The notes beneath the pieces were generated by a model. That model did not search any database, had not been told where the DNA came from, and saw only the letters and a program-made list of their open reading frames with translations. Below, one piece after another: positions 8,980-38,365 of a stretch of DNA of 38,365 nucleotides (position 1 is its first letter; each line of letters begins with the position of its first letter). The stretch is from positions 1 to 38,365 of IMG/VR virus record IMGVR_UViG_2778261245_000001. One strand, written 5' to 3'. The DNA is from a virus. Taxonomy: Duplodnaviria > Heunggongvirae > Uroviricota > Caudoviricetes. The position numbers and the translations under genes were made by a program.

Positions 8980-9330
8980 TTGATGCGTGATATGTATGAA
9001 GTATTGGACCGCTGGGGAGCATGGGCTGCAGCAGAAAATAGTGGTGTGGACTGGCAGCCGATAGCGGCTGGTTTCAAGGGACTTTTACCACACGGTAAAA
9101 AGTCACGTCTCCAGTGTGATGATGATGAAGGCATCATGATAGATAGTTGTGTGGCTAGGTTGCGTAAATATAAGCCGGAAGAGTATGAGCTGATAATTGC
9201 TCACTTTGTTATCGGTATCTCATTACGCACTATTGCGAAGAAGAGAAAATGCTCTGATGGGACTATAAGAAAAAAGTTGCAAGCTGCATTGGGATTTATT
9301 GATGCAGTTATATATATAATACATGGGTAA
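8980..9330 (+). CDS. Late-gene antiterminator Q
   Basis: 116 aa; LDRWGAWAAAENSGVDWQPIAAGFKGL...KSRLQCDDDEGIMIDSCVARL matches the Q-family pattern of lambdoid prophages. Confidence 0.8.
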   Translation: MMRDMYEVLDRWGAWAAAENSGVDWQPIAAGFKGLLPHGKKSRLQCDDDEGIMIDSCVARLRKYKPEEYELIIAHFVIGISLRTIAKKRKCSDGTIRKKLQAALGFIDAVIYIIHG

Positions 9331-9337
9331 TTTATTA

Positions 9338-9356
9338 GACGGCCATATTGGCCGTC
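9338..9356. terminator. Bidirectional hairpin terminator between Q and the convergent cassette
   Basis: Perfect hairpin GACGGCCA-TAT-TGGCCGTC with AT-rich flanks on both sides; overlaps the stop codon of the 9355-10542 gene. Confidence 0.55.
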
Positions 9357-10542: not shown

Positions 10543-11557
10543 CTAATTCTGATAAAATCTCTGATCTTAGCGTATCCGGAATCTCGGTAAGTATCAATTT
10601 ATCGTTTTCTGAATCATAAAGAACGCTGCCATCATGCAAGGCCGCACGCTCGAATTTCAGAGACCAATGTTTGGACTTTCCTTTGAAACTAACAAGCCCA
10701 CGTATAACGTTGCCATCAGGCACGAACCCATCAGAGAACTCCAGATCGTCATTGGTTAACTTTTCAACTAACAACTCAGGAGCAGTTGGCCATATCTCGT
10801 TTGCAAAAATTTGAGTGTCGAAAGTTTCACCAGAACGATTTAAATTTTTTAATTTTTCATGAGCCTTATTTAGGAACTCTTCACGTGCCTCTGGTTCAAA
10901 ACCTCTTTCAGTAGCAAATTCTAAAAGTGCATTCCGTAATTTTGTTGTTTCTTGTTTGGCAATTAGAATATCGTTGCAACCTAAAAACTTTTTGAAATAA
11001 CCTGCTACTGAATTTTGCCCCTTTAGAAAGCTAATATATCTCTCTTTGCCATTCTGGCGCCCAGTTAAGTCAATTCGTCCCGCTACTCGAAGTTTAGCAA
11101 TGTCTAGATATTCACTTTCTTGAATTTCAAAATCGTGGACTGAAGAGCCAACTGCTGATGTTAGGATTGCAACCATCAAATAATGATTTCCATTTACCTC
11201 ATTATGGGCAATTATTACATAACCACCAGTAGACATTGATTCATCATCGGCTCTGGCTTTTAAATGATTGATCATTCGGATACTAGTATCATAAAAACTA
11301 TGTGTTTTATTTACGAAATAATCATCAACGATATTACCCATAGGGTAACTATCGCGGTCATCTTCAAATTTCCCATATCCTTTACCTGCTCTCCCAGAGT
11401 ACCTTTCAGTAAGTGCGTTAGAGAGGTCTTTTGATGCTTGCTGAACAGGTTTTTCTGAAGGACAAGGAATAATGGTGGCTAACCCCTGTTGTTCCTTGTT
11501 CATAATGTGAACAATAAACTTATGAGTGATATTAGTGGGGGTCGCTGATGCAGTCAT
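10523..11557 (-). CDS. YejK/NdpA-family nucleoid-associated protein homolog (cassette gene A)
   Basis: 344 aa; similarity to E. coli YejK along the whole length as recalled: N-terminal ITHKFIVHIMNKEQQ (YejK INQIALHQLIKRDEQ), central YLDIAKLRVAGRIDLT...RYISFLKG...FLG (YejK YLDINHADIVARIDLT...RYLTFLKG...FLG), C-terminal KLILTEIPDTLRSEI (YejK TLTIKGTPPNLRDQL); AAGGA RBS upstream. Confidence 0.65.
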   Translation of the reverse strand: MTASATPTNITHKFIVHIMNKEQQGLATIIPCPSEKPVQQASKDLSNALTERYSGRAGKGYGKFEDDRDSYPMGNIVDDYFVNKTHSFYDTSIRMINHLKARADDESMSTGGYVIIAHNEVNGNHYLMVAILTSAVGSSVHDFEIQESEYLDIAKLRVAGRIDLTGRQNGKERYISFLKGQNSVAGYFKKFLGCNDILIAKQETTKLRNALLEFATERGFEPEAREEFLNKAHEKLKNLNRSGETFDTQIFANEIWPTAPELLVEKLTNDDLEFSDGFVPDGNVIRGLVSFKGKSKHWSLKFERAALHDGSVLYDSENDKLILTEIPDTLRSEILSELGEEDEQ

Positions 11558-11592
11558 AACAACATCCTTTTAATGGTTTTGAACAATTGGTG

Positions 11593-11620
11593 TTGATAAT
11601 ACTTCAAAAAATACTAATGC
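11593..11620 (+). promoter_or_regulatory. Putative late promoter (PR-prime-like) upstream of tR-prime
   Basis: TTGATA (about 11593-11598) with an AT-rich -10 candidate (TACTAA/TAATGC) 14-16 nt downstream; position about 60 nt upstream of a terminator and 230 nt upstream of the holin. Confidence 0.3.
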
Positions 11621-11673
11621 GTACGCAAAAAATACAGTACTCTGTTAAGAGTGGTTACTTCGCCACACAGCTT

Positions 11674-11700
11674 AAACCCGCCGTCGAGCGGGTTTTGTCG
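11674..11700 (+). terminator. Rho-independent terminator upstream of the lysis cassette (candidate tR-prime, the Q target)
   Basis: Stem AAACCCGC / GCGGGTTT with loop CGTCGA followed by TTGTCGTTTCT. Confidence 0.6.
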
Positions 11701-12654: not shown

Positions 12655-13088
12655 GCAGAGTCACCGCGATTATCTCCGCTCTGATTATCTGCATCATCGT
12701 CTGCCTGTCATGGGCTGTTAATCATTACCGTGATAACGCCATCGCCTACAAAGAGCAGCGCGATAAAGCCACATCCATCATCGCTGACATGCAGAAGCGT
12801 CAACGTGATGTAGCAGAACTCGACGCCAGATATACAAAGGAGCTTGCTGATGCTAACGCGACTATCGAAAGTCTCCGTGCTGATGTTTCTGCTGGGCGTA
12901 AGCGCCTGCAAGTCGCCGCCACCTGTGCAAAGTCAACGACCGGAGCCAGCAGCATGGGCGATGGAGAAAGCCCAGGACTTACAGCAGATGCTGAACTCAA
13001 TTATTACCGTCTCCGAAGTGGAATCGACAGGATAACCGCGCAGGTTAACTACCTGCAGGAATACATCAGGACGCAATGCCTTCGATGA
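12651..13088 (+). CDS. Rz: Inner-membrane spanin Rz
   Basis: 145 aa; N-terminus [31 protein letters not shown] matches lambda Rz; coiled-coil body. Confidence 0.9.
12844..13035 (+). CDS. Rz1: Outer-membrane lipoprotein spanin Rz1, embedded in the +1 frame of Rz
   Basis: 63 aa; signal peptide with lipobox-like LGVSAC followed by proline-rich segment, fully nested in Rz as in lambda. Confidence 0.8.
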
Positions 13089-13338
13089 TAGCGATAATTT
13101 TACTCATCATCCTTCACATCTGGCTCTGTAGACAGGGTGGTGCTTACTTCTGGAGCGAATCCAGATTAAACATCTCATTGCTGATGCTTGATATTGAGCA
13201 TCTGGCGCGCGGTAAGGGCTGTGTTGAGATAAGTGCCAGTTCATTACAAAGCTATATCTAATGGAACCTGAAATAATTTGTCATTGTCATGACAAGAAAA
13301 TTCATTAATGATGAGCTCTCATTATACGGGAGGTAGAT

Positions 13339-13587
13339 ATGGCATTTCGTTATTTTGAACTTACCGAAAATATTCCTTTTGAGGATGCAAGAGAGCTTCA
13401 CGTACAGTTCAAACACCACTTAGAATATGTTGTAAAGGCATTATTTATGTTAGGAACACATGAAAAGCATTTAATTGTTGAAGGCCGGGATGACGAATCG
13501 ATAACACAGATATTTGGTGGGCATGATGAAAAGTTTATGCATCTTTATCATATCGATGAATATGAAAAACGTGAAGACTTAATCTAA
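13339..13587 (+). CDS. Hypothetical small protein, 82 aa
   Basis: ORF with GGAGG-like RBS (gggaggtagatATG); preceded by a perfect 12-bp palindrome TTGTCATGACAA at about 13284-13295. Confidence 0.4.
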   Translation: MAFRYFELTENIPFEDARELHVQFKHHLEYVVKALFMLGTHEKHLIVEGRDDESITQIFGGHDEKFMHLYHIDEYEKREDLI

Positions 13588-13702
13588 CCTCCTACGACTG
13601 TTTTTATTGCCATCATAAAAGCCATTCCTTGCAGAGTGGCTTTGATAATGGATATCCCAACAAGCGGATAAGACAATAAATATACCCACCAGGGGATAAA
13701 CA

Positions 13703-13948
13703 ATGTCTAAAATCACGGTTACACCTGCATAGCAGATCCGCTTAAACCTGCTGGCGAAACTGAACTATGACACCGCCGCTGCAGCAGACGCGATTAAGTT
13801 TGTTGGTGACGATCCGTTGAAGTATCAAATCTTTGTGAACCAGTTAAGCTGGGTAATATCTGAAAGCGGGCTGGTAGCCAGAACGACGAAAGCTATCAAA
13901 GAGTCGGAAGACACACTACTGTGGTTTGAAGCTGAATCTGGTTCATAA
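13703..13948 (+). pseudogene. 81-codon reading frame with good RBS interrupted by an in-frame TAG at codon 10 (13730-13732)
   Basis: AGGGGA RBS 7 nt upstream of ATG 13703; frame reads MSKITVTPA-TAG-QIRLNLLAKLNYDTAAAADAIKFVGDDPLKYQIFVNQLSWVISESGLVARTTKAIKESEDTLLWFEAESGS, stopping at TAA 13946-13948 directly before the next gene. Confidence 0.4.
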
Positions 13949-13996
13949 GTGAATGAATGTGGTAATTTAATCCTCCGCAAAAAAAAGGGGATAAAA

Positions 13997-14218
13997 ATGC
14001 TAAAGAATGTCATAGCTATTTTACCGGGTGACGCGTTTGATCATGTTGTTGTCCAGGACGACCTGGAGATTGTTACCTTCAGGGGTGACAAGGGCGGCGT
14101 GCTTACTATGCCTATCGAGGAGTACGAACTAGACGGGATAAGTTATAACGTCGCACGTTGTGACGGTATGGTCACTGACGAAAAAGTTGAGAAGGCTATC
14201 AGACACTTCACCAAGTAA
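13997..14218 (+). CDS. Hypothetical small protein, 73 aa
   Basis: ATG with AAAGGGGA RBS; ORF track lists a GTG-extended version from 13949; followed by a strong terminator. Confidence 0.45.
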   Translation: MLKNVIAILPGDAFDHVVVQDDLEIVTFRGDKGGVLTMPIEEYELDGISYNVARCDGMVTDEKVEKAIRHFTK

Positions 14219-14235
14219 TAATCAGCTTCCGAACC

Positions 14236-14260
14236 AAGCCTCGCAATAGCGAGGCTTTTT
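14236..14260 (+). terminator. Rho-independent terminator
   Basis: AAGCCTCGC-AATA-GCGAGGCTT followed by TTT. Confidence 0.75.
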
Positions 14261-14272
14261 AACGACAGAGGT

Positions 14273-14467
14273 ATGACAGTGGTTCTTACAGCTAAGCAGT
14301 TTGAAGACCTTGCATCCTTCGCGAAGGAAGATAGCCAGCCTCAATACACCATCGCAACCGGAATAATCCCAGAATTCGAAGATGATTGTGAGTTTATCCC
14401 CGTTTATGCCGGGCTCATCGCTTATTTAGAGTTACTGAATCACGGTGTATTGCAACTCGACCACTAG
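14273..14467 (+). CDS. Hypothetical small acidic protein, 64 aa
   Basis: ORF between two terminator-bounded units; no family recognised. Confidence 0.35.
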   Translation: MTVVLTAKQFEDLASFAKEDSQPQYTIATGIIPEFEDDCEFIPVYAGLIAYLELLNHGVLQLDH

Positions 14468-14541
14468 CGACATTACGCCAAGTATTCATCAAGTGCCTAG
14501 TTTAATGTTAAATTATTCCCTCATTCATAAAAGGGAATGTT

Positions 14542-14943
14542 ATGAAAATAGATCACGAGTATTTGAAAGGTCTTTTGGAAGCTTTCGAGGCGTCTGAAGA
14601 GCCGCATACTGATATAAAGCAGCTGCAGCTGGCTGGGTATGACTACAGCACCGATGAATTTTTATTCCATATGCGTTTATTGGCTGATCGTCAACTAATT
14701 GCTAGAACAGACGGCAAGTATGGGTTTGGTTTCTCTGAGGCTGCTGATGGAGGATCATGGTTCGTTATACCGTTACGATTAACTTCAAGCGGTCATGACT
14801 TCCTTGAAGCTCTCAGGAATAAAGAGGTTTGGAATTCTCTCAAGACCGGCTTTAAAGATGCAAGCATTGGAACATTAGTTGACGTTTCAAGGCGTTTGCT
14901 GGATGGTTATATTCAGAAAAAAATTGACGACTTAATTGGCTAA
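14542..14943 (+). CDS. DUF2513-like prophage protein (winged-helix-like), 133 aa
   Basis: N-terminus MKIDHEYLKGLLEAFEASEE resembles the DUF2513 family as recalled; own terminator downstream. Confidence 0.45.
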   Translation: MKIDHEYLKGLLEAFEASEEPHTDIKQLQLAGYDYSTDEFLFHMRLLADRQLIARTDGKYGFGFSEAADGGSWFVIPLRLTSSGHDFLEALRNKEVWNSLKTGFKDASIGTLVDVSRRLLDGYIQKKIDDLIG

Positions 14944-25133: not shown

Positions 25134-25282
25134 CGGCTGAATACCTCACTGATCGCTTCTTTGACTGCGCCAGCTACTGGCGCATTAATCCCTTCGAATT
25201 GCTGAATATGCCGATCAGTGAAATTCCCTTGCTGGTCAGTCAGGCAAACAGGATAGAGCAGGAGAAACGCACACATGGCTGA
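25100..25282 (+). CDS. -1 frame extension giving the G-T-like frameshifted chaperone
   Basis: ORF in the -1 frame overlapping the end of the G-like gene; slippery T TTT TTC at 25115-25121; extension ends at the start of the tape measure gene. Confidence 0.5.
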   Translation: MACGWFFPPGLTAEYLTDRFFDCASYWRINPFELLNMPISEIPLLVSQANRIEQEKRTHG

Positions 25283-27107
25283 ATTTGAGCTTAAGGCGTT
25301 GATCACCGGTGTCGACAGGCTTTCTCCCGCGCTGTCGAAAATGCAAAAGAAAATCCGGGGATTTAAACGCCAGGCGGAAGAAGCGTCACAGGGTGGGCTG
25401 GCGCTTGGTGGAGGACTGGCAGCGGGGCTGACGCTTTCCCTGAAATCTTATGCCGATCAGGAAAACGCCGCTACCGGGCTGAAAGTCGCCATGATGGATG
25501 CGAACGGCGAGGTTGGAAAGAGCTTTCAGGACATCAATAAACTGGCTATTGGCCTGGGTAACCAGCTACCCGGTACAACGGCTGATTTCCAGAACATGAT
25601 GCAGATGCTGGTGCGTCAGGGGATCCCGGCAGAAAACATTCTGGGTGGTGTGGGTAAAGCGACAGCTTATCTTGCGGTACAACTGAAAAAAACACCGGAA
25701 GCGGCTGCTGAGTTTGCTGCAAAGATGCAGGATGCTACCGGAACGGCGTCAGAAGACATGATGGGGCTGTTCGACACTATCCAGAAGGCGTTTTATCTGG
25801 GCGTTGACGATACCAACATGTTGTCCTTCTTCACTAAAACCAGTTCTGTTCTGAAGATGGTGAACAAGGACGGTCTTCAGGCTGCACAGAGCCTTGCCCC
25901 CATCAGCGTCATGATGGATCAGATGGGGATGAACGGGGAGTCGGCAGGTAATGCCCTGCGAAAAGTTATCCAGTCCGGATTAAGTGTTAAGAAAATCAGG
26001 GACGTCAATAAAGTCATGGCCCGCCAGAAACTCGGGGTACAGCTCGATTTTACTGACGGCAAAGGAAGTTTTGGCGGTCTTGATAACATGTTCAGGCAAC
26101 TGGCAAAGTTGCGAAAACTGACCGACGTTAAGCGAACAGGCGTACTTAAGGCAATATTTGGTGATGATGCCGAAACCCTTCAGGTGGTCAATGTCCTGAT
26201 CGATAAAGGAAAGGATGGCTACGATCAGATCCAGCAGAAGATGAATAAACAGGCCAGCCTGAATAAACGTGTTCAGGCTCAGCTTGGTACGCTGTCCAAC
26301 CTGTGGGAGGCAATGACGGGGACCGCAACTAACGGTCTTGCAGCTATTGGCGGAGCATTTTCTGGTGACGCTAAAAATATCACGCAATGGCTGGGGGAGT
26401 TGGGGGAAAAATTCACGAAGTTTGCGGATGAAAATCCCCGGGTTATTCGCGGCGTCGTCGGGCTTGCTGCCGGTCTTGCGATTCTGAAACTGGGATTGAT
26501 GGGCGTTGGCGGTGCCATCAGTATTGTCAGCAGGATCATGTCGATGACGCCGATTGGCATGATTGCGACGGCGATAGCCCTGGCTGCGGGATTAATTATC
26601 ACTAACTGGGATGTTGTCGGACCTTATTTTAAGAAACTCTGGGAAACCATTGGTCCTTATTTTGAGGCTGGCTGGGAACTCCTTAAGAAAGTTTTTGCCT
26701 GGTCGCCGCTGGGGATGGTGATCAATAACTGGGGGCCGGTTGTTAAGTGGTTTCAGGATATGTGGGACAAGCTGAAGCCAATTATTGAGTGGTTTACCGA
26801 CAGTTCCGGTGACACGGTCGATGCCATTAACTCTGCGCAGTGGGGCGCGGGTGCTTATGATGCTTATGGGACGGGAATACCGACGCGGGGATACACACCT
26901 TATCCGGCGGTGGATCCGGCTCAGTCAAACAACGCCTCCGATGCCACAGGCCCGAATCCCTTCATGATTAACAAAGCTATCGCGCCAAAAGTTGATGGCG
27001 AGATCAAGGTTTCATTTATGAATATGCCACCAGGTATGCGGGTTACGGAAACACGTTCCAGTGGCATTGATATTAATCACGATGTTGGGTACACCAGATT
27101 TAGGTAA
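25275..27107 (+). CDS. Tail tape measure protein
   Basis: 610 aa, coiled-coil rich with glycine-rich hydrophobic segment; position after chaperones. Confidence 0.85.
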   Translation: MAEFELKALITGVDRLSPALSKMQKKIRGFKRQAEEASQGGLALGGGLAAGLTLSLKSYADQENAATGLKVAMMDANGEVGKSFQDINKLAIGLGNQLPGTTADFQNMMQMLVRQGIPAENILGGVGKATAYLAVQLKKTPEAAAEFAAKMQDATGTASEDMMGLFDTIQKAFYLGVDDTNMLSFFTKTSSVLKMVNKDGLQAAQSLAPISVMMDQMGMNGESAGNALRKVIQSGLSVKKIRDVNKVMARQKLGVQLDFTDGKGSFGGLDNMFRQLAKLRKLTDVKRTGVLKAIFGDDAETLQVVNVLIDKGKDGYDQIQQKMNKQASLNKRVQAQLGTLSNLWEAMTGTATNGLAAIGGAFSGDAKNITQWLGELGEKFTKFADENPRVIRGVVGLAAGLAILKLGLMGVGGAISIVSRIMSMTPIGMIATAIALAAGLIITNWDVVGPYFKKLWETIGPYFEAGWELLKKVFAWSPLGMVINNWGPVVKWFQDMWDKLKPIIEWFTDSSGDTVDAINSAQWGAGAYDAYGTGIPTRGYTPYPAVDPAQSNNASDATGPNPFMINKAIAPKVDGEIKVSFMNMPPGMRVTETRSSGIDINHDVGYTRFR

Positions 27108-27114
27108 AGACGAA

Positions 27115-27136
27115 CAGGGAGGGCCGTCCCTCCCTG
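27115..27136. terminator. GC-rich hairpin between convergent tape-measure and opposite-strand accessory gene
   Basis: Perfect 9-bp stem CAGGGAGGG / CCCTCCCTG with 4-nt loop; no strong T-tract on either side. Confidence 0.4.
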
Positions 27137-27139
27137 AAC

Positions 27140-27586
27140 TTACTGTGCGAACACGCAATTTCGGCCTGATGGGGAGCCGACAATTCTGGACATTTTTTCG
27201 CAAATAACAGTTACTTGTTCTCCTTTTTTAAGAGCAGCAGCTGTTGATTTTTCAGAGTCTTGCATCTCCATTCTTGCTGGCATGAATTCATTTTCAGTTC
27301 TGAATTTAATAATTATAGAGTCAGTAAAGTCCTTATCAATGGATTGTACGATACCTCTAACGGCGATTAATTTACCTTTTAACTGTTCATCGGTAGCGAC
27401 TTCATTTTCTTCATACTCTTTAAACAGCTGTCGAGCAGTAGTGTTGTAGATTTCTTTTTGCGGTGCCGCAGCTTCCGTATCGGATGAGTATGAAGAATTA
27501 GAGCCTTTATCGTTATTGCCTGCAAAATATCCAATAATCACCAACCCGATGAAAATATATAAAATCCATTTTAATAATTTCTTCAT
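27140..27586 (-). CDS. Membrane-anchored or secreted OB-fold protein (tRNA_anti-like family), accessory gene on opposite strand
   Basis: 148 aa, AT-rich; N-terminal hydrophobic helix KWILYIFIGLVIIGYFAG; motif YEENEVATDEQLKGKLIAVRGIVQSIDKD...KKGEQVTVICE fits the OB-fold pattern of that family as recalled. Confidence 0.55.
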   Translation of the reverse strand: MKKLLKWILYIFIGLVIIGYFAGNNDKGSNSSYSSDTEAAAPQKEIYNTTARQLFKEYEENEVATDEQLKGKLIAVRGIVQSIDKDFTDSIIIKFRTENEFMPARMEMQDSEKSTAAALKKGEQVTVICEKMSRIVGSPSGRNCVFAQ

Positions 27587-27696
27587 GTTATCACCTTAAT
27601 GCTAATAATTTATATAGTTACAAATGGTAATGGCTACCACTACAAATTATGGCATTACCAGTAAATATTACTACTGATAATAAATATGGGACTTAT

Positions 27697-29025
27697 ATGA
27701 CGTGGAAAGACAGGCTTCAGGATGCGTCATTTCGCAGCGTGCCGTTTAAGGTTGAAGAAGAAAGTGCGGGAACCGGTCGCCGTGTGGAAACACATGAATA
27801 CCCGAACCGCGACAAGCCCTATACCGAAGATCTGGGAAAAGTCACTTTCCGCCCGTCCATCACAGCTTATGTGGTGGGAGATGACTGCTTTGACCAGCGC
27901 GATCGCCTGATTGAAGCGCTGAATAAACCCGGTCCCGGCACACTTGTCCACCCGACATATGGTGAGCTGAAAGTCTGTGTTGACGGGGAAGTTCGGGTCA
28001 GCACATCGAAAAGTGAAGGGCGTATTGTCCGCTTTGACCTGAAGTTTGTCGAAGCAGGAGAACTCTCTTACCCCACATCAGGTGCGGCGACGGCGCAGAC
28101 GCTGATGTCATCCTGTTCTGCACTGGATGACTGCATCAGTGACAGCTTCAGCGGTTTCAGTATCGATGGTGTGGCGGATTTCGTGCAGAACGACGTTATC
28201 GGTAATGCCAGCACAATGCTTGGGTATGTTTCTGATGCGATGAAAGTGGTGGATTCTGCCGTATCGGATGCCGCCAGGCTGTTGCAGGGGGATATCTCGG
28301 TACTTCTGCCGCCGCCATCCTCAGGCAAAAATTTCGTTGAGCAGGTGCAGAAAATGTGGCGTACCGGGAAACGCCTTTATGGTAACGCCAGCGACCTGGT
28401 CACCATGATCAAAACGCTTTCCGGTGTCAGCCTCGGCAGCGATCTGCAACCGCGCGGCGTCTGGAAAACGGACAGTAAAACCACCGCCACGGCGACGCAG
28501 CAGCGTAACGTGGTTGCCAGCACCCTTCGTACGACCGCAATCAGCGAAGCGGCGTATGCCGTCACCCGATTGCCTGCGCCAACAACTTCCGCGGTGATGC
28601 AGAATTCCGCAGTGGGGCAGGCAACAACACCCGCGCAGAGCACTGGCTGGCCTTCCGTCACGCATCCGGCACTGAACAATGCACCGGCGGTGAAAAACAC
28701 GGTTGACCTGCCAACGTGGGAAGAACTGACCGACATTCGCGACACACTGAATACGGCAATTGATAAGGAGTTGTCCCGTACAACCAGTGATGCGCTGTTT
28801 CTGGCGCTGCGCCGGGTGAAAGCAGATCTGAATGCGGATATCAACACGCGCCTTGAACAGTCTGCACGGATCATTCAGCGCACACCGGATGAGGTTTTAC
28901 CCGCGCTGGTGCTGGCGGCGACCTGGTTTGATAACGCGGCGCGTGACGCGGACATTATCCGGCGTAATGCCATTACGCATCCCGGCTTTGTGCCGGTGAT
29001 CCCTCTGAAGGTGCCAGTGCAATGA
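27697..29025 (+). CDS. Mu gpN-like DNA circularisation / tail protein
   Basis: About 442 aa from ATG 27697; first gene after tape measure in Mu-type baseplate block. Confidence 0.75.
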   Translation: MTWKDRLQDASFRSVPFKVEEESAGTGRRVETHEYPNRDKPYTEDLGKVTFRPSITAYVVGDDCFDQRDRLIEALNKPGPGTLVHPTYGELKVCVDGEVRVSTSKSEGRIVRFDLKFVEAGELSYPTSGAATAQTLMSSCSALDDCISDSFSGFSIDGVADFVQNDVIGNASTMLGYVSDAMKVVDSAVSDAARLLQGDISVLLPPPSSGKNFVEQVQKMWRTGKRLYGNASDLVTMIKTLSGVSLGSDLQPRGVWKTDSKTTATATQQRNVVASTLRTTAISEAAYAVTRLPAPTTSAVMQNSAVGQATTPAQSTGWPSVTHPALNNAPAVKNTVDLPTWEELTDIRDTLNTAIDKELSRTTSDALFLALRRVKADLNADINTRLEQSARIIQRTPDEVLPALVLAATWFDNAARDADIIRRNAITHPGFVPVIPLKVPVQ

Positions 29026-33468: not shown

Positions 33469-34070
33469 TGGATAACGCCGTATTAAATAGCGAGCTTATT
33501 GCCACGAAGGCGGGGAATATTACCGTCTATAACTATGATGGTAAAACTCGGGAATATATTTCCACTTCAAATGAATATCTTGCCATTGGTGTCGGTATCC
33601 CTGCATATTCCTGTTTAGATGCCCCTGGCACACATAAGGCGGGTTATGCTATCTGCCGTTCGATGGATTTAAACTCATGGGAATATGTGCCAGATCATCG
33701 CGGTGAAATTGTCTATAGCACCGAAACAGGAGAATCGAAAGAAATCACAGCTCCGGGTGATTATCCTGAAAATACAACCACTATCGCCCCGTTAACGCCA
33801 TACGATGAATGGAATGGTGAGAAATGGGTGACAGATACCGAGGCACAGCACGGCGCAGCAGTAGATGCAGCAGAAGCACAGCGCCAGTCGCTGATTGATA
33901 CTGCAATGGCCTCCATCAGTCTGATTCAACTGAAATTACAGGCCGGACGGAAGCTGACGCAGGCAGAAACAACCCGCCTTAACGCTGTGCTGGATTACAT
34001 TGACGCGGTGACGGCAACAGATACCAGCACAGCGCCGGATGTCATCTGGCCTGAATTGCCGGAGGCGTAG
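33468..34070 (+). CDS. Tail fibre assembly protein (chaperone) for the expressed fibre variant
   Basis: 200 aa; immediately follows fibre gene; C-terminal region similar to that of the opposite-strand paralog (TSTAPDVIWPELP vs TSGAPDIEWPTPP). Confidence 0.7.
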   Translation: MDNAVLNSELIATKAGNITVYNYDGKTREYISTSNEYLAIGVGIPAYSCLDAPGTHKAGYAICRSMDLNSWEYVPDHRGEIVYSTETGESKEITAPGDYPENTTTIAPLTPYDEWNGEKWVTDTEAQHGAAVDAAEAQRQSLIDTAMASISLIQLKLQAGRKLTQAETTRLNAVLDYIDAVTATDTSTAPDVIWPELPEA

Positions 34071-34494
34071 GCCATTCAATATCTGGCGCACCGGAAGTAT
34101 CGATCAGCTCCAGTGCGTCCAGATAATCCAGCCACAAATTATATTGCGCCAGTTCCTCACCTTTCAGACGACCAATAGCGGCTTTACCAGGCCATTGCTT
34201 ACCGTTCATGTATTCGTTAGCCTGGTTAATTAGTAGCTGTCTTTCTGATTCAGTAATTTCAATAAGCTCTTCATGAGTAGGTGGAGGAATATCTGCCCAC
34301 GCAGGTAGTCCATCCTCTCCGGCAATACGGACTTTTCCTTGTGGCGGTTCAGCCATAAACTCACTGACAATATTTTGATTCACCTCCTTAGCATCTGATA
34401 AATCCCATCCTACTGATTTATATTTATCAATCATATCCACAGGGAAAAAAGCATTATGCCTGGCACTATAAACATATTCGTTCATATAAATCAC
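34042..34494 (-). CDS. Alternative tail fibre assembly protein (opposite orientation)
   Basis: 150 aa; paralogous C-terminus to 33468-34070; convergent arrangement typical of invertible fibre cassettes. Confidence 0.7.
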   Translation of the reverse strand: MIYMNEYVYSARHNAFFPVDMIDKYKSVGWDLSDAKEVNQNIVSEFMAEPPQGKVRIAGEDGLPAWADIPPPTHEELIEITESERQLLINQANEYMNGKQWPGKAAIGRLKGEELAQYNLWLDYLDALELIDTSGAPDIEWPTPPAIQAR

Positions 34495-34505
34495 CCTGAA
34501 TAAAA

Positions 34506-34878
34506 TTACTCACCAACAGCCCACCAACTGTAATGCATAGATACCGTGTCACTGGTTGATGACGTTCTGTAAGCAGAATTAAAGCCGGTTAACGTAGGGC
34601 CTTCTGCAGTCATCACGAACCCTCGCCCAGCGCCTAAAGGCGCACCGCCATCACCAGAATGGGTAAGAATGGCGCAGTCCGCTTTTTTAGGGAAAGGGAT
34701 AGGAAATGTAATCCTCATTGTTTGCGTCGATAATTTCGGCATAGCCTCGCCTCGACCATATTGCAGAATTTTACCGTTGGGTAATTTCATCCATCCATCA
34801 CCACTGGCAAAAGAGGCCATGTCCGGTATCTGATTTTCCCCTGTCCCTACATCCCGTTTTGCCGCTTCTCCCAAACCA
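34506..34878 (-). CDS. Alternative variable tail-fibre C-terminal segment (promoterless; expressed only after inversion)
   Basis: Minus-strand ORF whose 5-prime end coincides with the right crossover site (encodes INVGLGE matching the ENLGLGE junction of the expressed fibre); the ORF-track N-terminal extension to 34919 lies outside the segment and is probably not real. Confidence 0.55.
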
Positions 34879-34891
34879 ACGTTTATGAAAA
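34866..34891. other. Right crossover site of the invertible segment
   Basis: Reverse complement reads ...CATAAACGTTGGTTTGGGAGAA, sharing the 15-nt block TTGGTTTGGGAGAAG with the left site in inverted orientation. Confidence 0.6.
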
Positions 34892-34945
34892 TGCAGAAAT
34901 AACGAGCAAATGGCATCATTCCTGCTTTTGTCAGGGGGATCTACC

Positions 34946-35500
34946 ATGCTTATTGGCTATGTACGCGTATCAACAAATGACCAGAACACAGATCTACAAC
35001 GTAATGCGCTGAACTGTGCAGGATGCGAGCTGATTTTTGAAGACAAGATAAGCGGTACAAAGTCCGAAAGGCCGGGACTGAAAAAACTGCTCAGGACATT
35101 ATCGGCAGGTGACACGCTGGTGGTCTGGAAACTGGACCGGCTGGGGCGCAGTATGCGGCATCTTGTCGTGCTGGTGGAGGAGTTGCGCGAACGAGGCATC
35201 AACTTTCGTAGTCTGACGGATTCAATTGATACCAGTACCCCAATGGGGCGCTTTTTCTTTCATGTGATGGGTGCCCTGGCTGAAATGGAGCGTGAACTGA
35301 TTGTTGAAAGAACAAAAGCTGGACTGGAAGCTGCTCGCGCACAGGGACGAATTGGTGGACGTCGTCCCAAACTTACACCAGAACAATGGGAACAGGCCGG
35401 ACGATTAATTGCATCAGGAGTTCCTCGCCAGAAGGTGGCGATTATCTATGATGTTGGTGTGTCAACTTTGTATAAGAGGTTTCCTGCAGGGGATAAATAA
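34946..35500 (+). CDS. pin: Serine DNA invertase (Hin/Gin/Pin family)
   Basis: 184 aa from ATG 34946 with AGGGGGA RBS; MLIGYVRVSTNDQNTDLQRNAL...DTLVVWKLDRLGRSMRHL...GRRPKLT is the resolvase/invertase catalytic and HTH signature; matches PinE as recalled. Confidence 0.9.
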   Translation: MLIGYVRVSTNDQNTDLQRNALNCAGCELIFEDKISGTKSERPGLKKLLRTLSAGDTLVVWKLDRLGRSMRHLVVLVEELRERGINFRSLTDSIDTSTPMGRFFFHVMGALAEMERELIVERTKAGLEAARAQGRIGGRRPKLTPEQWEQAGRLIASGVPRQKVAIIYDVGVSTLYKRFPAGDK

Positions 35501-35606
35501 AGTTAAAGACACTTTTTGTACAAAAGAGAATAAAACAACAGCAACTTGTTGCAATTTTATCAATAAAAGTAGTATTGTCGTGAAAAATTGATTAAAGATT
35601 AATATT

Positions 35607-36440
35607 ATGCATGTTTTTGATAATAATGGAATTGAACTGAAAGCTGAGTGTTCGATAGGTGAAGAGGATGGTGTTTATGGTCTAATCCTTGAGTCGTGGG
35701 GGCCGGGTGACAGAAACAAAGATTACAATATCGCTCTTGATTATATCATTGAACGGTTGGTTGATTCTGGTGTATCCCAAGTCGTAGTATATCTGGCGTC
35801 ATCATCAGTCAGAAAACATATGCATTCTTTGGATGAAAGAAAAATCCATCCTGGTGAATATTTTACTTTGATTGGTAATAGCCCCCGCGATATACGCTTG
35901 AAGATGTGTGGTTATCAGGCTTATTTTAGTCGTACGGGGAGAAAGGAAATTCCTTCCGGCAATAGAACGAAACGAATATTGATAAATGTCCCAGGTATTT
36001 ATAGTGACAGTTTTTGGGCGTCTATAATACGTGGAGAACTATCAGAGCTTTCACAGCCTACAGATGATGAATCGCTTCTGAATATGAGGGTTAGTAAATT
36101 AATTAAGAAAACGTTGAGTCAACCCGAGGGCTCCAGGAAACCAGTTGAGGTAGAAAGACTACAAAAAGTTTATGTCCGAGACCCGATGGTAAAAGCTTGG
36201 ATTTTACAGCAAAGTAAAGGTATATGTGAAAACTGTGGTAAAAATGCTCCGTTTTATTTAAATGATGGAAACCCATATTTGGAAGTGCATCATGTAATTC
36301 CCCTGTCTTCAGGTGGTGCTGATACAACAGATAACTGTGTTGCCCTTTGTCCGAATTGCCATAGAGAATTGCACTATAGTAAAAATGCAAAAGAACTAAT
36401 CGAGATGCTTTACGTTAATATAAACCGATTACAGAAATAA
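35607..36440 (+). CDS. mcrA: McrA-like HNH endonuclease (modified-cytosine restriction)
   Basis: 277 aa, AT-rich; C-terminal CENCGKNAPFYLNDGNPYLEVHHVIPLSSGGADTTDNCVALCPNCH HNH motif; same length and position (after pin, before icd fragment) as mcrA of e14; N-terminus MHVFDNNGIEL as recalled for McrA. Confidence 0.8.
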   Translation: MHVFDNNGIELKAECSIGEEDGVYGLILESWGPGDRNKDYNIALDYIIERLVDSGVSQVVVYLASSSVRKHMHSLDERKIHPGEYFTLIGNSPRDIRLKMCGYQAYFSRTGRKEIPSGNRTKRILINVPGIYSDSFWASIIRGELSELSQPTDDESLLNMRVSKLIKKTLSQPEGSRKPVEVERLQKVYVRDPMVKAWILQQSKGICENCGKNAPFYLNDGNPYLEVHHVIPLSSGGADTTDNCVALCPNCHRELHYSKNAKELIEMLYVNINRLQK

Positions 36441-36673
36441 AATTATTTATTAAAGTCACATTTAAGACGTAATACCCTACAGGGTAAAAATTTTCTCTGA
36501 TCTTAACTTCTGCAAATGTTAACTGCTATTTTTATGCTAAAAATGGTTATCAAAACTCAAAAACACATGTTTATAATCAATGAGTTATAGAAATGCTAAG
36601 GGCTAATGAGTTATATGCAAATTAGTAAAATTATGTTGCTATGTCAAATAGTTACGATTTAGTCATCTAACTA

Positions 36674-36838
36674 ATGTTACGCCATATGGGTTGGACTGAA
36701 GCGGCTGACCTGATTGTTAAAGGTATGGAAGGCGCAATCAATGCCAAGACCGTAACCTATGACTTCGAACGTCTGATGGAAGGCGCTAAACTGCTGAAAT
36801 GTTCAGAGTTTGGTGACGCGATCATCAAGAACATGTAA
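36674..36838 (+). pseudogene. icd: Displaced 3-prime fragment of isocitrate dehydrogenase gene (icdC-like), marking the prophage right junction
   Basis: Encodes (M)[53 protein letters not shown], matching the Icd C-terminus; homology begins abruptly at about 36671 after AT-rich phage DNA. Confidence 0.85.
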
Positions 36839-36861
36839 TCACTACATGTGTTAAATATTTA

Positions 36862-36890
36862 AACGGGCGTATAATACGCCCGTTGTTTTA
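36862..36890 (+). terminator. icd transcription terminator
   Basis: Perfect 10-bp stem AACGGGCGTA / TACGCCCGTT with loop TAA followed by GTTTTATTTAT. Confidence 0.8.
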
Positions 36891-36940
36891 TTTATGTGGA
36901 TATTATTAATAGCATATCGAGCATATTTATATAAAACCTA

Positions 36941-37264
36941 TTACTTGAGCCCATATGGGCATATTTTTATAATACAACTCTTATGCAAACATTTATTTGT
37001 TATTTCGCTTTCTCCTGGAGGACACTCTTGACAGCTTTTGAGTAAACTCCATAAATTCTTGTTGAATGGTGCAATGTTATAAATAGTAATAGGGTATTCT
37101 TTATCCTTAAGGATAATACCAGGCTTAACCGGTGTAAATATACTTCCAGGAGGAAGAAATATAGTAGATTGATACCAGATGATCATTTTCATATCACCCC
37201 ATATGGCTGAAAAAGATATGCCGCATGTAGGTTGAATTACCGTGTCAATTACTACCCACTTCAT
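36941..37264 (-). CDS. iraM: Anti-adaptor protein IraM (RssB inhibitor)
   Basis: 107 aa; [41 protein letters not shown] matches IraM as recalled; position between icd fragment and ycgX as in E. coli K-12. Confidence 0.75.
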
Positions 37265-37722
37265 TTGTTATGTCTTATCCCACGGTATTTAATATAGTTC
37301 ATTTGGATGTTCATTTCTTTATTTTGCATATGAGTATATTACCCTTCAAAAAAAATAAATTAATTAAAACGATTGCTTATATAAAACAAAACTTAAAGCA
37401 AGGAATCTCAATGGATGTTAAACAAAATGAGATTTAGTGAAAACAATAAATTATTCACTTCGTTTTAGATTTGTTTAGCTATAATGTTATACATTCAAAT
37501 GACTGAACATCCTGTAATTAAAACATAGCCTTTATGCTACTTTGTGCCAATTTGCTAAACATTATGGTTGCCTTTTTATATAACGATAATAATGAATATA
37601 AGCATGACATGAGAATAAGGTTTCAATTTTTGAGTTATATAGGAAAGGTTTAACCTGTTCCTGGCTAAAATACATATAACTGGATGATGACTAAACCAAA
37701 ACACATGTGCGTTAAGTATTGA

Positions 37723-37750
37723 AACGGGCGTATGGCACGCCCGTTGGTTT
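37723..37750 (+). terminator. Second copy of the icd-terminator-like hairpin
   Basis: Stem AACGGGCGT / ACGCCCGTT, loop ATGGC, followed by GGTTTTAT; about 55 nt including upstream ACATGTG..TTAA.TATT is roughly 85 percent identical to 36845-36895. Confidence 0.6.
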
Positions 37751-37960
37751 TATAAATATGTTAACCGTTATAAAATAACGTATAGAAAGTCAAGTGATCA
37801 CATTTCAAATATCAATTTGATAGTATTGGCCTGGTGATTATTTATGGGTAGCAATAAAAGGACCGTATTTATCATCCATAGGGATAGTCTCTGTACTTTT
37901 ATTCCCATTATGCTAATGCCTTACTGAATTATGAAGCATTTCTTAAGCATCCAACTTTAG

Positions 37961-38365
37961 CTAGATTAATGGTTTATTATTTTCTACATCTTCAATATAT
38001 AAAAGCGTATTATCAATGGCGTAGTAACTGCGTTTGTTATGATTAACATCAGTAACCCAACGAAAAACGCCCGCGCCTGCCAGTGTTGAACAGTATTCCC
38101 GAAATGTAGATTTTCCGCAAATATGAAGCAATGCGGCCTCTTTTATTTTAGCAGGGTTCTTGATCGTACTAACTTTTAACAGGTTCCTGGTTCCTCTTAA
38201 TAACAAAACCGTGTCATCGTGAGTAATAATTCTGATGTTATCCGTAGCCAGATAATAAATGTAATGTGCAATACGGTGATGTTTTAATTCTGAATAAAAC
38301 CAGGAGAAGTTTTGCTCTTTTCTCACTTGCTCAAACATCTTTTGAAAAACAACGACCTGATCCAT
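37961..38365 (-). CDS. ycgX: YcgX-like protein (DUF1398), host gene
   Basis: 134 aa complete ORF ending at the window edge; length and position after iraM match ycgX of E. coli K-12. Confidence 0.55.
   Translation of the reverse strand: MDQVVVFQKMFEQVRKEQNFSWFYSELKHHRIAHYIYYLATDNIRIITHDDTVLLLRGTRNLLKVSTIKNPAKIKEAALLHICGKSTFREYCSTLAGAGVFRWVTDVNHNKRSYYAIDNTLLYIEDVENNKPLI

What the first reader, a model, noticed from the sequence alone, without database searches (positions are those of the whole stretch)
27108..27696. Opposite-strand OB-fold membrane-anchored gene inserted inside the tail gene block
A single AT-rich minus-strand gene interrupts the co-directional tail operon between tape measure and the Mu N-like gene. 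It is bounded by a GC hairpin (27115-27136) on one side and an AT-rich promoter-like region with the inverted repeat TGGTAATG...CATTACCA (about 27635-27672) on the other. The product has an N-terminal membrane anchor and a tRNA_anti-like OB-fold motif. Genes at such positions are typically lysogenically expressed cargo (superinfection exclusion or envelope modification).
Basis: partly seen in the sequence, partly recalled or inferred. Interest (0 to 1): 0.55.

Follow-up and report, generated by a model that had tools for sequence, protein, structure and literature searches.

The report
Prophage cargo gene: periplasmic OB-fold protein
A small, foreign-looking gene for a membrane-anchored protein facing the periplasm sits backwards inside the tail genes of an E. 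coli SfV-like prophage; it is optional cargo, most likely protecting the host against other phages, and is a fairly ordinary example of a known phenomenon whose exact function is untested.

Summary
Window 27140-27586 (minus strand) encodes a 148-aa protein. It fills the 589-bp gap (27108-27696) between the tape measure gene and the Mu N-like "DNA circularization" gene of an SfV-like E. coli prophage.

- **Foreign composition:** GC is 37% (GC3 34%) against 51-56% in the flanks.
- **Protein:** it matches PF12869 (E=2.9e-19) and folds as an N-terminal TM helix, a disordered linker and an OB barrel closest to PDB 3F1Z.
- **Regulatory features:** the GC hairpin is real and conserved. The 8-bp inverted repeat is no better than chance.
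- **Dispensable:** about half of related E. coli prophages, and the viable phages SfV, SfI and SfII, have an empty junction. Others carry unrelated small genes there.
- **Under selection:** dN/dS is about 0.06 against a 71% allele at the same site.
- **Topology:** family-wide signals (signal peptides, lipoboxes, cytoplasmic zinc ribbon plus TM, a near-invariant Cys pair) place the OB domain in the periplasm, not on nucleic acid.
- **Context elsewhere:** homologues repeatedly sit just downstream of prophage repressors, or in P2-like defence hot-spots.

Best reading: a moron encoding an envelope-level exclusion protein. Cargo status is shown; function is inferred. It is a new member of a known kind, of moderate interest.

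The parts
27108..27696 (-). Whole cargo cassette (moron). It fills the gap between the tape measure stop codon and the N-like start codon, and replaces the ~64-bp intergenic region with a plus-strand terminator-like hairpin that is found in empty sites.
   Evidence: Alignment of the window with empty and alternatively occupied junctions (A2); span census; GC 36.8%.
27140..27586 (-). CDS of the 148-aa membrane-anchored OB-fold protein (RefSeq WP_000734912.1, 'OB-fold protein').
   Evidence: ORF. PF12869 E=2.9e-19. PHROG 8545 E=1.5e-49. Identical RefSeq annotation. dN/dS about 0.06 against the 71% allele.
27521..27583 (-). Codons 2-22: N-terminal signal-anchor / TM helix. K2, K3 and K6 lie on the cytoplasmic side.
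   Evidence: Hydropathy up to 2.16; AF2 helix 2-22.
27452..27520 (-). Codons 23-45: low-complexity Ser/Asn/Thr-rich disordered linker, variable in length among homologues.
   Evidence: pLDDT <50 for residues 25-39; variable block in alignment A1.
27149..27451 (-). Codons 46-146: OB-fold domain. It is acidic (pI about 5.6), has a near-invariant Cys pair (C129/C144) and the invariant residues Y58, N61 and D66.
27115..27136 (-). Terminator-like GC hairpin 3 nt after the stop codon of the OB gene. The stem is conserved in the divergent allele.
27590..27597 (-). Shine-Dalgarno AAGGTGAT, identical in the 71% allele.
   Evidence: Sequence; alignment A3.
27646..27654 (-). Predicted extended -10 promoter element TGC-CATAAT, about 55 nt upstream of the ATG. 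It is conserved as TGC-TATAAA in the divergent allele. This is a prediction only: there is no good -35, and the consensus scanner did not call it.
   Evidence: Footprint alignment A3; the scanner found no canonical sigma-70 site here.
27625..27660 (.). It flanks the predicted -10 but is statistically unremarkable and not conserved.
25275..27107 (+). Left flank: tail tape measure gene. Its C-terminal ~120 aa diverge together with the OB allele.
   Evidence: PF10145; comparison with L011 and with the empty-site carrier.
27697..29025 (+). Right flank: Mu N-like DNA circularization / tail protein gene.
   Evidence: PF07157; RefSeq start; 98% identical between carriers of the two OB alleles.

Best explanation
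The 589-bp stretch is a moron: a horizontally acquired, self-contained transcription unit dropped between the tape measure and Mu N-like genes of an SfV-type prophage.

It encodes a bitopic inner-membrane protein with three parts: a short cytoplasmic N-terminus with a TM helix, a flexible linker, and a disulfide-stabilised OB-fold domain in the periplasm.

It is transcribed against the late tail operon from its own weak, extended -10 type promoter and ends at its own hairpin. It can therefore be made in the lysogen while the tail genes are silent, and late read-through would oppose it by antisense transcription.

Its most likely job is envelope-level protection of the lysogen. The periplasmic OB domain would bind a conserved partner at the inner membrane or periplasm, either a host component that incoming phages use or the ejected tape measure / tail-tip proteins. 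That would block genome entry (superinfection exclusion).

**Status of each step**
- Shown: gene, fold, dispensability, mosaic distribution, purifying selection.
- Strongly inferred: periplasmic topology.
- Inferred: prophage expression.
- Hypothesis: exclusion activity and its target.
For: **Cargo status**
- Low GC and GC3.
- Empty junction in 28 of 60 sampled E. coli records, with unrelated alternative occupants in others.
- SfV, SfI and SfII lack the gene despite 97-98% identical flanks.

**Functional gene**
- A 71% allele sits at the same site in the same orientation.
- dN=0.17 with dS saturated, so dN/dS is about 0.06.

**Own signals**
- Conserved hairpin.
- Conserved SD and extended -10.

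**Fold**
- AF2 pLDDT 86.6.

**Periplasmic topology**
- 212 of 232 family members have a TM helix or signal peptide before the OB domain. 8 have lipoboxes, and 40 have CxxC zinc ribbons N-terminal to the TM.
- The Cys pair is present in 216 of 217 sequences.
- The domain is acidic, pI 5.6.

**Lysogenic or defence context of homologues**
- One is 13 nt downstream of a CI repressor in a P2/186-like prophage.
- One is in the repressor operon of Burkholderia phage Carl1.
- Of 27 dereplicated same-strand upstream neighbours in IMG/VR loci, 8 are Phage_CI_repr and 9 are HTH_3, 3 of those with Peptidase_S24.
- Neighbours include a TIR+SIR2 protein, OLD-like ATPases and a Gabija-like pair next to gpD.
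- Opposite-strand inserts occur in P2-like and Klebsiella tail blocks.

**Label and precedents**
- PHROG 8545 is labelled 'superinfection exclusion Sie-like'.
- Membrane Sie proteins that act on tape-measure or ejection-protein conduits are known: HK97 gp15, TP-J34 Ltp and P22 SieA, as summarised in PMC10883804.
- The divergent OB allele is co-inherited with a divergent tape measure C-terminus.
Against: - No experiment on any member of this subfamily was found.
- The PHROG label could not be traced to a characterised protein.
- There are no PADLOC or NCBIfam hits.
- No canonical sigma-70 promoter was detected, so expression in lysogeny is not shown.
- Invariant surface residues across distant members argue for a conserved ligand rather than a fast-evolving phage protein.
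- Pantoea and Erwinia copies look chromosomal, although they sit beside an integrase fragment.
- The same tape measure C-terminal allele exists with and without the gene, so the coupling to the tape measure may be mere linkage.
- 5'-truncated copies (E. coli 042 type) show that the gene is lost without consequence in some lineages.
Confidence: 0.5

Rival explanations
1. Lysogenic-conversion factor for host envelope fitness, unrelated to phages. The periplasmic OB domain would bind a host envelope component (peptidoglycan, glucans, a porin or an inner-membrane protein) and alter stress, serum or antimicrobial-peptide tolerance. Lambda Bor and Lom, or the periplasmic BOF-type OB proteins, do this kind of thing (own knowledge).
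For: - Periplasmic topology.
- Invariant residues over distant members suggest a conserved, non-phage ligand.
- Apparently chromosomal, species-wide copies occur in Pantoea next to copCD-yebY.
- The family is very large, with 7490 cluster representatives.
Against: - The recurrent placement next to repressors and among bona fide anti-phage systems points to defence rather than general fitness.
- PHROG label.
- The Erwinia-type 'chromosomal' locus carries an integrase fragment, so it looks like prophage debris.
Confidence: 0.22
2. Protection against other periplasm-crossing attacks, with the OB domain as blocker. Candidates are immunity to colicins, tailocins or T6SS effectors, or entry exclusion against conjugative DNA transfer.
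For: - Pantoea loci carry WapI-type immunity genes nearby.
- A PF12869 gene lies in a Klebsiella ICE region beside MobA/MobL and TIR genes (PMC4943203).
- Membrane-anchored periplasmic proteins are the usual architecture for entry exclusion (own knowledge).
Against: - No toxin or conjugation genes are linked in the window or in most viral loci.
- The association is with prophage lysogeny and tail modules.
Confidence: 0.12
3. Membrane-tethered nucleic-acid-binding abortive-infection protein of the AbiP / PdpSau type. The OB domain would sit in the cytoplasm, bind phage DNA or RNA and trigger membrane damage.
For: - The Pfam name and the 3F1Z title say 'nucleic acid-binding'.
- AbiP and PdpSau are membrane-anchored prophage or plasmid proteins with an OB-like domain (PMC10127798).
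Against: - Lipobox, cleavable signal peptide and zinc-ribbon-plus-TM variants all put the domain outside the cytoplasm.
- A near-invariant Cys pair fits an oxidising compartment.
- The domain is acidic (pI 5.6), whereas PdpSau's C-terminus is positively charged.
- PADLOC gives no Abi match.
Confidence: 0.05
4. Tail-related accessory: an assembly factor, or a cis- or antisense regulator of expression from the tape measure gene into the N-like gene, needed by this tail type.
For: - Position between the tape measure and N-like genes.
- Antisense orientation to the late transcript.
- The cassette replaces the plus-strand terminator-like hairpin of empty sites.
Against: - Absent from SfV, SfI, SfII and SfIV and from about half of E. 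coli relatives with near-identical tail genes.
- Homologues occur next to repressors, far from tail genes.
- Truncated copies persist in otherwise intact modules.
Confidence: 0.02
5. Selectively neutral hitch-hiker, or decaying remnant, with no current function.
For: - 5'-deleted copies lacking promoter, start codon and TM anchor occur in E. coli 042, DG342-2 and five IMG/VR contigs.
- Several shorter variants occur in the protein cluster.
Against: - Strong purifying selection between the two alleles.
- Invariant motifs across 232 relatives.
- The exact protein is seen on at least 1000 contigs.
Confidence: 0.05

Closest known systems
HK97 gp15 moron (superinfection exclusion; Cumby et al. 2012, as summarised in PMC10883804 and PMC3594210)
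   Same: A small, single-gene moron inside the tail gene block next to the tape measure gene of an E. coli temperate phage. [quoted passage not shown]
   Different: gp15 is a tiny YebO-like membrane protein without an OB domain (own knowledge), and HK97 has a non-contractile tail. No sequence comparison was run here. Here the tail is Mu-like and contractile, and no phenotype is known.
TP-J34 Ltp (Streptococcus thermophilus prophage lipoprotein)
   Same: A membrane-tethered, outward-facing prophage protein encoded near the lysogeny module. It blocks DNA injection, and the block is overcome by tape measure changes. One BFVD structural neighbour of our model carries the 'Host cell surface-exposed lipoprotein' name used for this family (a lead only).
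   Different: Ltp uses helix-turn-helix-like repeat domains, not an OB fold (own knowledge). It is from a Gram-positive host and is lipid-anchored rather than TM-anchored.
P22 SieA
   Same: A prophage-expressed inner-membrane protein of about 160 aa that blocks DNA delivery by interfering with the periplasmic and membrane ejection conduit (PMC10883804).
   Different: SieA has three predicted TM helices and no soluble periplasmic domain. tblastn of our protein against 50,697 phage records did not hit P22.
PDB 3F1Z / Pfam PF12869 'tRNA_anti-like' (Klebsiella putative nucleic-acid-binding lipoprotein)
   Different: Only 16% identity. 3F1Z is a structural-genomics entry with no assigned function. 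The 'nucleic acid-binding' name is an inference from the fold.
AbiP (Lactococcus) / PdpSau (S. aureus prophage)
   Same: Membrane-anchored, mobile-element-encoded anti-phage proteins with an N-terminal TM helix and an OB-like domain (PMC10127798).
   Different: Their OB-like domain is cytoplasmic, basic and binds nucleic acid, and they act by abortive infection. Here the domain is predicted to be periplasmic and acidic.
phi80 Tai (orf63) 'noncontiguous operon' moron
   Same: A defence gene placed in divergent orientation inside a Q-dependent late operon. It is on in the lysogen and opposed by late transcription (PMC11364771).
   Different: Tai is cytoplasmic, blocks tail assembly, lies upstream of the packaging genes and has a paired counter-defence gene. 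No such partner is evident here.
CcmE (haem chaperone) and C. difficile TcdC
   Different: Unrelated functions and contexts; no specific sequence motifs are shared or were tested.

Membership tests
Pfam PF12869 (tRNA_anti-like OB fold) | Sequence match to the family HMM above the gathering threshold | tested here: met
   69.5 bits against a cut-off of 23.5, E=2.9e-19, covering profile positions 5-131 of 146.
Pfam PF12869 (tRNA_anti-like OB fold) | OB-barrel fold like the founding structure 3F1Z | tested here: met
Pfam PF12869 (tRNA_anti-like OB fold) | Nucleic-acid (tRNA anticodon-like) binding implied by the name | not testable with these tools
   Indirect evidence argues against it: extracytoplasmic targeting in 212 of 232 members, the Cys pair, and pI 5.6.
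Moron (Juhala/Hendrix sense; PMC3594210) | Present in some and absent from other closely related phage genomes at the same position | tested here: met
   Empty junction in 28 of 60 sampled records and in SfV, SfI and SfII; alternative occupants in others.
Moron (Juhala/Hendrix sense; PMC3594210) | Base composition different from the surrounding genome | tested here: met
   GC 37% and GC3 34% against 51-56% and 56-60%.
Moron (Juhala/Hendrix sense; PMC3594210) | Own terminator | tested here: met
   Hairpin 27115-27136, dG -19.5, z=-2.87, stem conserved in the divergent allele; the T-tail is weak.
Moron (Juhala/Hendrix sense; PMC3594210) | Own promoter | tested here: inconclusive
   The scanner found no canonical sigma-70 site upstream. 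A conserved extended -10 (TGC-CATAAT in the window, TGC-TATAAA in the other allele) was seen by footprinting.
Moron (Juhala/Hendrix sense; PMC3594210) | Expressed from the repressed prophage | not testable with these tools
   Only indirect: homologues lie co-directionally downstream of CI repressors.
Superinfection-exclusion proteins (functional class) | Located in the cell envelope | tested here: met
   Prediction only: TM helix 2-22, with family-wide signal peptides, lipoboxes and TM helices.
Superinfection-exclusion proteins (functional class) | Blocks infection after adsorption, at DNA entry | not testable with these tools
   No experimental data found.
PHROG 8545 ('superinfection exclusion Sie-like') | Match to the PHROG profile | tested here: met
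   E=1.5e-49, 169 bits, full length. The functional label could not be traced to a characterised protein.
P22 SieA family | Three TM helices and sequence similarity to SieA types A-C | tested here: not met
   A single TM helix; tblastn against the phage collection hit no P22-like phage; SieA topology from PMC10883804.
AbiP / PdpSau membrane-anchored Abi proteins | Cytoplasmic, positively charged nucleic-acid-binding C-terminal domain | tested here: not met
   Domain pI 5.6; extracytoplasmic targeting signals across the family; no PADLOC hit.
HK97 gp15 / YebO family | Sequence homology to gp15/YebO | not tested
   No gp15 sequence was compared. The resemblance is positional and conceptual only.
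Known anti-phage defence systems (PADLOC-DB v2) | Match to any defence-protein HMM | tested here: not met
   0 families at E<=1.

The most novel reading that the evidence does not exclude
The PF12869 subfamily would be a large, so far uncharacterised class of prophage-borne entry-exclusion proteins. It has 164 clusters at E<=1e-30 within a superfamily of about 7500 clusters.

They would work through a periplasmic OB domain. This would be the first OB-fold Sie protein, and the first Sie described for Mu-like contractile tails. It would capture either the tape measure C-terminus or N-like protein ejected ahead of the DNA, or the incoming DNA end itself, in the periplasm.

That reading would also overturn the family's 'tRNA anticodon-like, nucleic-acid-binding' annotation in its cytoplasmic sense.
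Probability: 0.3. Interest if true: 0.6.

Novelty: new member of a known kind. Interest (0 to 1): 0.4.

Why it matters
Morons in tail operons are a known source of prophage-encoded host protection. This one adds a widespread, experimentally untouched protein family. The exact protein is on at least 1000 contigs, and thousands of relatives exist.

Its database name ('tRNA_anti-like', 'nucleic acid-binding') is probably misleading about where it acts. If it excludes phages at the inner membrane, it would be:
- a simple single-gene resistance determinant relevant to phage therapy against E. coli, Shigella and Klebsiella;
- a handle on how contractile Mu-like tails pass DNA across the periplasm.

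The junction between the tape measure and N-like genes is also a clean natural 'cargo slot', with at least four interchangeable occupants, and is useful for mining further candidates.

Tried and rejected
- **PDB sequence searches:** a single-sequence and a profile search gave nothing meaningful. Only fold comparison found 3F1Z.
- **Defence and naming libraries:** PADLOC and NCBIfam gave no hits for the OB protein or for two alternative cargos.
- **Literature:** searches on PF12869, tRNA_anti-like, WP_000734912, 'Sie-like', OB-fold plus exclusion, and SfV morons found no study of this protein.
- **PHROG label:** tracing the 'Sie-like' label through deposited phage genomes with three different family members returned only unannotated hypotheticals.
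- **Tab and Tai:** Tab (JBD26) and Tai (phi80) were considered as relatives and rejected. Neither is a membrane or OB protein.
- **AbiP/PdpSau analogy:** rejected on topology and charge.
- **Inverted repeat as operator:** rejected as not above chance and not conserved.
- **The 27649 ATG as the N-like start:** rejected in favour of 27697. My own first coordinate (27698) was off by one and was corrected after a frame error.
- **AFDB50 fold search:** unavailable.
- **HK97 gp15 paper:** PMC3430355 is not held.
- **Cys-Cys distance:** model coordinates are not exposed, so the distance could not be measured.
Full report
**What is there.**
The window is an E. coli lambdoid prophage of the SfV type. 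Its genes include:
- integrase 403-1533(-) and an S24-type CI repressor 3097-3771(-);
- HK97-like head genes and a Mu-like contractile tail, with sheath, tube, tape measure 25275-27107 (PF10145), Mu N-like 'DNA circularization' 27697-29025 (PF07157), and baseplate genes related to Mu gp44-48.

An identical locus is annotated in E. coli STEC005. The finding's coordinates, 27108-27696, are exactly the gap between the tape measure stop codon and the N-like start codon. The gap holds one minus-strand ORF, 27140-27586, of 148 aa. RefSeq calls it 'OB-fold protein' (WP_000734912.1).

**Checking the described features.**
- **Composition.** The gene is clearly foreign: GC 37.1% and GC3 33.6%, against 51-56% and 56-60% in the two flanking tail genes.
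- **Hairpin.** The GC hairpin at 27115-27136 lies 3 nt after the stop codon on the gene's own strand. It has a 9-bp stem with 7 GC pairs, dG -19.5 kcal/mol and z=-2.87. A 71%-identical allele at the same site keeps the GGGAGGG/CCCTCCC stem with a different loop (z=-3.49). The T-tail is weak.
- **Inverted repeat.** TGGTAATG/CATTACCA is really at 27625-27632 and 27653-27660. About 20% of dinucleotide shuffles of the upstream 110 nt match it, it folds no better than shuffles (z=-1.04), and it is not conserved. I do not regard it as a feature.
- **Conserved upstream elements.** The Shine-Dalgarno AAGGTGAT (27590-27597) is conserved. So is an extended -10-like element TGC-CATAAT (27646-27654, minus strand; TGC-TATAAA in the other allele), about 55 nt before the ATG. 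The consensus scanner did not call a canonical promoter there, so the promoter is a prediction.

**The protein.**
PF12869 (tRNA_anti-like) matches at E=2.9e-19, well above threshold. PHROG 8545, labelled 'superinfection exclusion Sie-like', matches at E=1.5e-49.

**Which side of the membrane?**
All lines of evidence point to the periplasm.
- The N-terminus is KK..K followed by a hydrophobic helix.
- Close homologues replace the anchor with a lipobox (ISGC). Longer ones have a cleavable signal peptide plus extra periplasmic modules, or a cytoplasmic zinc ribbon followed by one TM helix and then the OB domain.
- Of 232 family members collected, 212 have such a signal before the OB domain. The 20 exceptions are mostly fragments.
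- Two cysteines (C129, C144) are both present in 216 of 217 ungapped sequences, as expected for a periplasmic disulfide.
- The domain is acidic, pI 5.6.

So the family name's implication of cytoplasmic nucleic-acid binding is unlikely to describe this protein. Y58, N61 and D66 are invariant in all 232 sequences, and the QSIDKDF and N.F.PAR motifs are nearly so. This suggests a conserved ligand or partner.

**Is it needed for the tail? No.**
A synthetic 'empty-site' query (400 bp of the tape measure 3' end joined to 400 bp of the N-like 5' end) matched 1101 E. coli records. In 60 rows taken evenly down the ranking, the spans were as follows:

| Span | Records | Occupant |
|---|---|---|
| 864 bp (about 64-bp intergenic) | 28 | empty site |
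| about 1484 bp | 11 | 176-aa TM-anchored hypothetical, plus strand |
| 1297 bp | 3 | 125-aa PH-domain protein |
| 1390 or 1247 bp | 5 | OB gene, intact or 5'-truncated |
| N-like gene matched only | 11 | tape measure 3' end diverged |

A further variant carries a 164-aa secreted protein. The viable phages SfV, SfI and SfII share the tape measure to N-like block at 97-98% identity with the empty junction, where SfII's record annotates a terminator. SfIV also has no cargo.

The alignment of junctions shows that the cassette begins right after the tape measure stop codon and ends about 10 nt before the N-like ATG. It replaces a plus-strand hairpin and T-run that empty sites and plus-strand cargos keep (dG -18.7, z=-3.1). 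E. coli 042 and others carry a copy with about 143 bp deleted, which removes the promoter region, start codon and TM anchor.

**Is it functional? Yes.**
A 71%-identical allele (P0008) sits at the same junction in the same orientation. Between the two alleles dN is 0.17 and dS is saturated, so dN/dS is about 0.06. The exact protein occurs on at least 1000 contigs, and is named only 'OB-fold protein', 'tRNA_anti-like' or 'hypothetical'.

**Where do relatives live?**
- In a P2/186-like prophage the homologue starts 13 nt after the CI repressor gene on the same strand.
- In Burkholderia phage Carl1 it is the last gene of the repressor operon, followed by an annotated terminator and abutting tail gene D.
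- In a P2-like metagenomic prophage a lipoprotein version is an opposite-strand insert between gpU and gpD, just after the tape measure gene.
- In a Klebsiella phage a zinc-ribbon version is an opposite-strand insert in the baseplate block.
- IMG/VR holds 102 relatives. Among 27 dereplicated same-strand upstream neighbours outside the E. coli junction group, 8 are Phage_CI_repr proteins and 9 carry HTH_3, 3 of those with Peptidase_S24.
- Downstream neighbours include P2 gpD (9 loci), a TIR+SIR2 protein, OLD-like AAA_15/21 ATPases and a Gabija-like pair of OLD-TOPRIM ATPase and UvrD helicase. The gene therefore often sits in the lysogeny and defence hot-spot of P2-like phages.
- Pantoea and Erwinia copies lie in a small-gene island next to copCD-yebY. 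In one case the island carries an integrase fragment and a bPH_2 gene. The PH-domain gene that occupies the E. coli junction in some prophages looks like the same kind of protein, but I did not scan it against Pfam. These islands look like prophage remnants.
- The family as a whole is large: 7490 cluster representatives at E<=1e-3, and 164 at E<=1e-30.

**How it most likely works.**
- *Shown:* an optional, selected, foreign gene with its own terminator-like hairpin, encoding an OB-fold protein with an N-terminal membrane anchor.
- *Strongly inferred:* the OB domain is periplasmic and disulfide-bonded.
- *Inferred:* it is expressed from the prophage. This rests on homologues being co-transcribed with repressors, and on the opposite orientation to the late operon, which gives the phi80 Tai 'noncontiguous operon' logic (PMC11364771).
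- *Hypothesis (about 0.5):* it protects the lysogen at the envelope. It would bind either a conserved host component needed for genome entry, or the tape measure or N-like proteins ejected ahead of the DNA.

Characterised precedents are HK97 gp15, TP-J34 Ltp and P22 SieA. All three are membrane proteins that block DNA delivery, and all are escaped by changes in tape measure or ejection proteins (PMC10883804).

One suggestive detail concerns the tape measure protein. The tape measure proteins that accompany the two OB alleles are virtually identical up to about residue 490 and then diverge over the last 120 residues, while the N-like proteins are 98% identical. So the divergent block is 'tape measure C-terminus plus OB allele'. 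However, the window's tape measure allele also occurs with an empty site at 98% identity, so this may be plain linkage.

**Rivals.**
- An envelope fitness factor unrelated to phages (0.22).
- Protection against colicins, tailocins, T6SS effectors or conjugative entry (0.12).
- A cytoplasmic AbiP/PdpSau-like nucleic-acid-binding Abi protein (0.05; contradicted by topology and charge).
- A neutral or decaying remnant (0.05; contradicted by purifying selection).
- A tail accessory (0.02; contradicted by distribution).

**Comparison with the known, and novelty.**
It is a bona fide member of PF12869 and PHROG 8545, and it fits the moron definition on three of four sequence-testable criteria (the promoter is inconclusive). 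It is not a member of the SieA, AbiP/PdpSau, Tab or Tai families, nor of any PADLOC family.

No experimental study of this subfamily was found. The PHROG 'Sie-like' label could not be traced to a characterised protein.

The phenomenon, a moron in a tail operon that probably protects the host, is well known. The specific protein family is uncharacterised and its name is probably misleading. I rate it a new member of a known kind, interest 0.4.

Noticed in passing
window 9355-11557 (minus strand; low-GC island 9051-11700, minimum 29.5% GC): A second opposite-strand cargo lies between the Q/antiterminator region and the holin. It has two overlapping genes: a 344-aa NA37 nucleoid-associated protein homologue (PF04245, E=8.3e-69) and a 395-aa protein with no Pfam or PADLOC hit. 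This is the slot called a moron in SfIV (PMC3851460). The otherwise identical STEC005 prophage has different content here.
   Followed up: partly
window 35607-36440 (+), within low-GC island 35251-38350: A full-length Type IV methyl-directed restriction enzyme (PADLOC PDLC03656, E=6.5e-203; HNH domain) lies at the prophage end after the tail-fibre region. It is a bona fide defence gene on the same prophage.
   Followed up: partly
window 34042-35500: A Gin/Cin-like serine invertase (Resolvase+HTH_7, 34910-35500) lies next to oppositely oriented tail-fibre / fibre-assembly ORFs (34042-34919, minus strand). This suggests an invertible host-range segment, as in Mu and P1.
   Followed up: no
L008 1900-1965 (E. 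coli DA33137 empty junction); equivalent position in L002, L003, L009: Empty junctions and plus-strand cargos keep a strong plus-strand hairpin and T-run (CCCACTCCGGTGGG-T6; dG -18.7, z=-3.1) just before the N-like RBS. This is an intrinsic-terminator-like element in the middle of the tail operon, and SfII annotates it as a terminator. The OB cassette lacks it.
   Followed up: partly
L002 3200-3730; L003 2920-3414; L009 1956-2333: The same junction holds at least three other interchangeable small genes: a 176-aa TM-anchored protein, a 164-aa secreted protein, and a 125-aa protein that RefSeq annotates as PH domain-containing (I did not scan that one). The two scanned have no PADLOC or NCBIfam match. 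A gene with a precomputed PF03703 (bPH_2) hit also neighbours an OB homologue in an Erwinia-type island (L020 3714-4133).
   Followed up: partly
window 26745-27107 (tape measure codons ~490-610) vs L011 6470-6830: The tape measure proteins of the two OB-allele carriers are nearly identical for 490 residues, then diverge sharply with a 20-aa indel over the C-terminal ~120 residues adjacent to the cassette. The N-like proteins are 98% identical.
   Followed up: partly
L004 3140-3526 (E. coli 042), L010, L042-L046: A 5'-truncated OB gene, lacking the promoter region, start codon and TM anchor through a ~143-bp deletion, is annotated in RefSeq as an intact 128-aa 'OB-fold protein' with a non-ATG start. 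It is probably a pseudogene.
   Followed up: yes
window 27550-27600 vs L011 5990-6040: The ribosome-binding site and first ~12 codons are identical at the nucleotide level between alleles that are otherwise saturated at synonymous sites. dS is 0.31 for codons 1-22 and saturated elsewhere. This could be a recombination breakpoint or a constraint on translation initiation.
   Followed up: no
window 13051-14540: A low-GC (35%) stretch between the lysis genes and the DUF2513 gene (14542-14943) holds only short ORFs of 53-89 aa, all uncharacterised.
   Followed up: no
L090 5483-9081; L058 3231-4571; L081 5485-7008: In IMG/VR prophages the OB homologue sits directly beside a Gabija-like pair (OLD-TOPRIM ATPase plus UvrD helicase), a TIR+SIR2 protein, or OLD-like AAA_15/21 ATPases.
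   Followed up: partly
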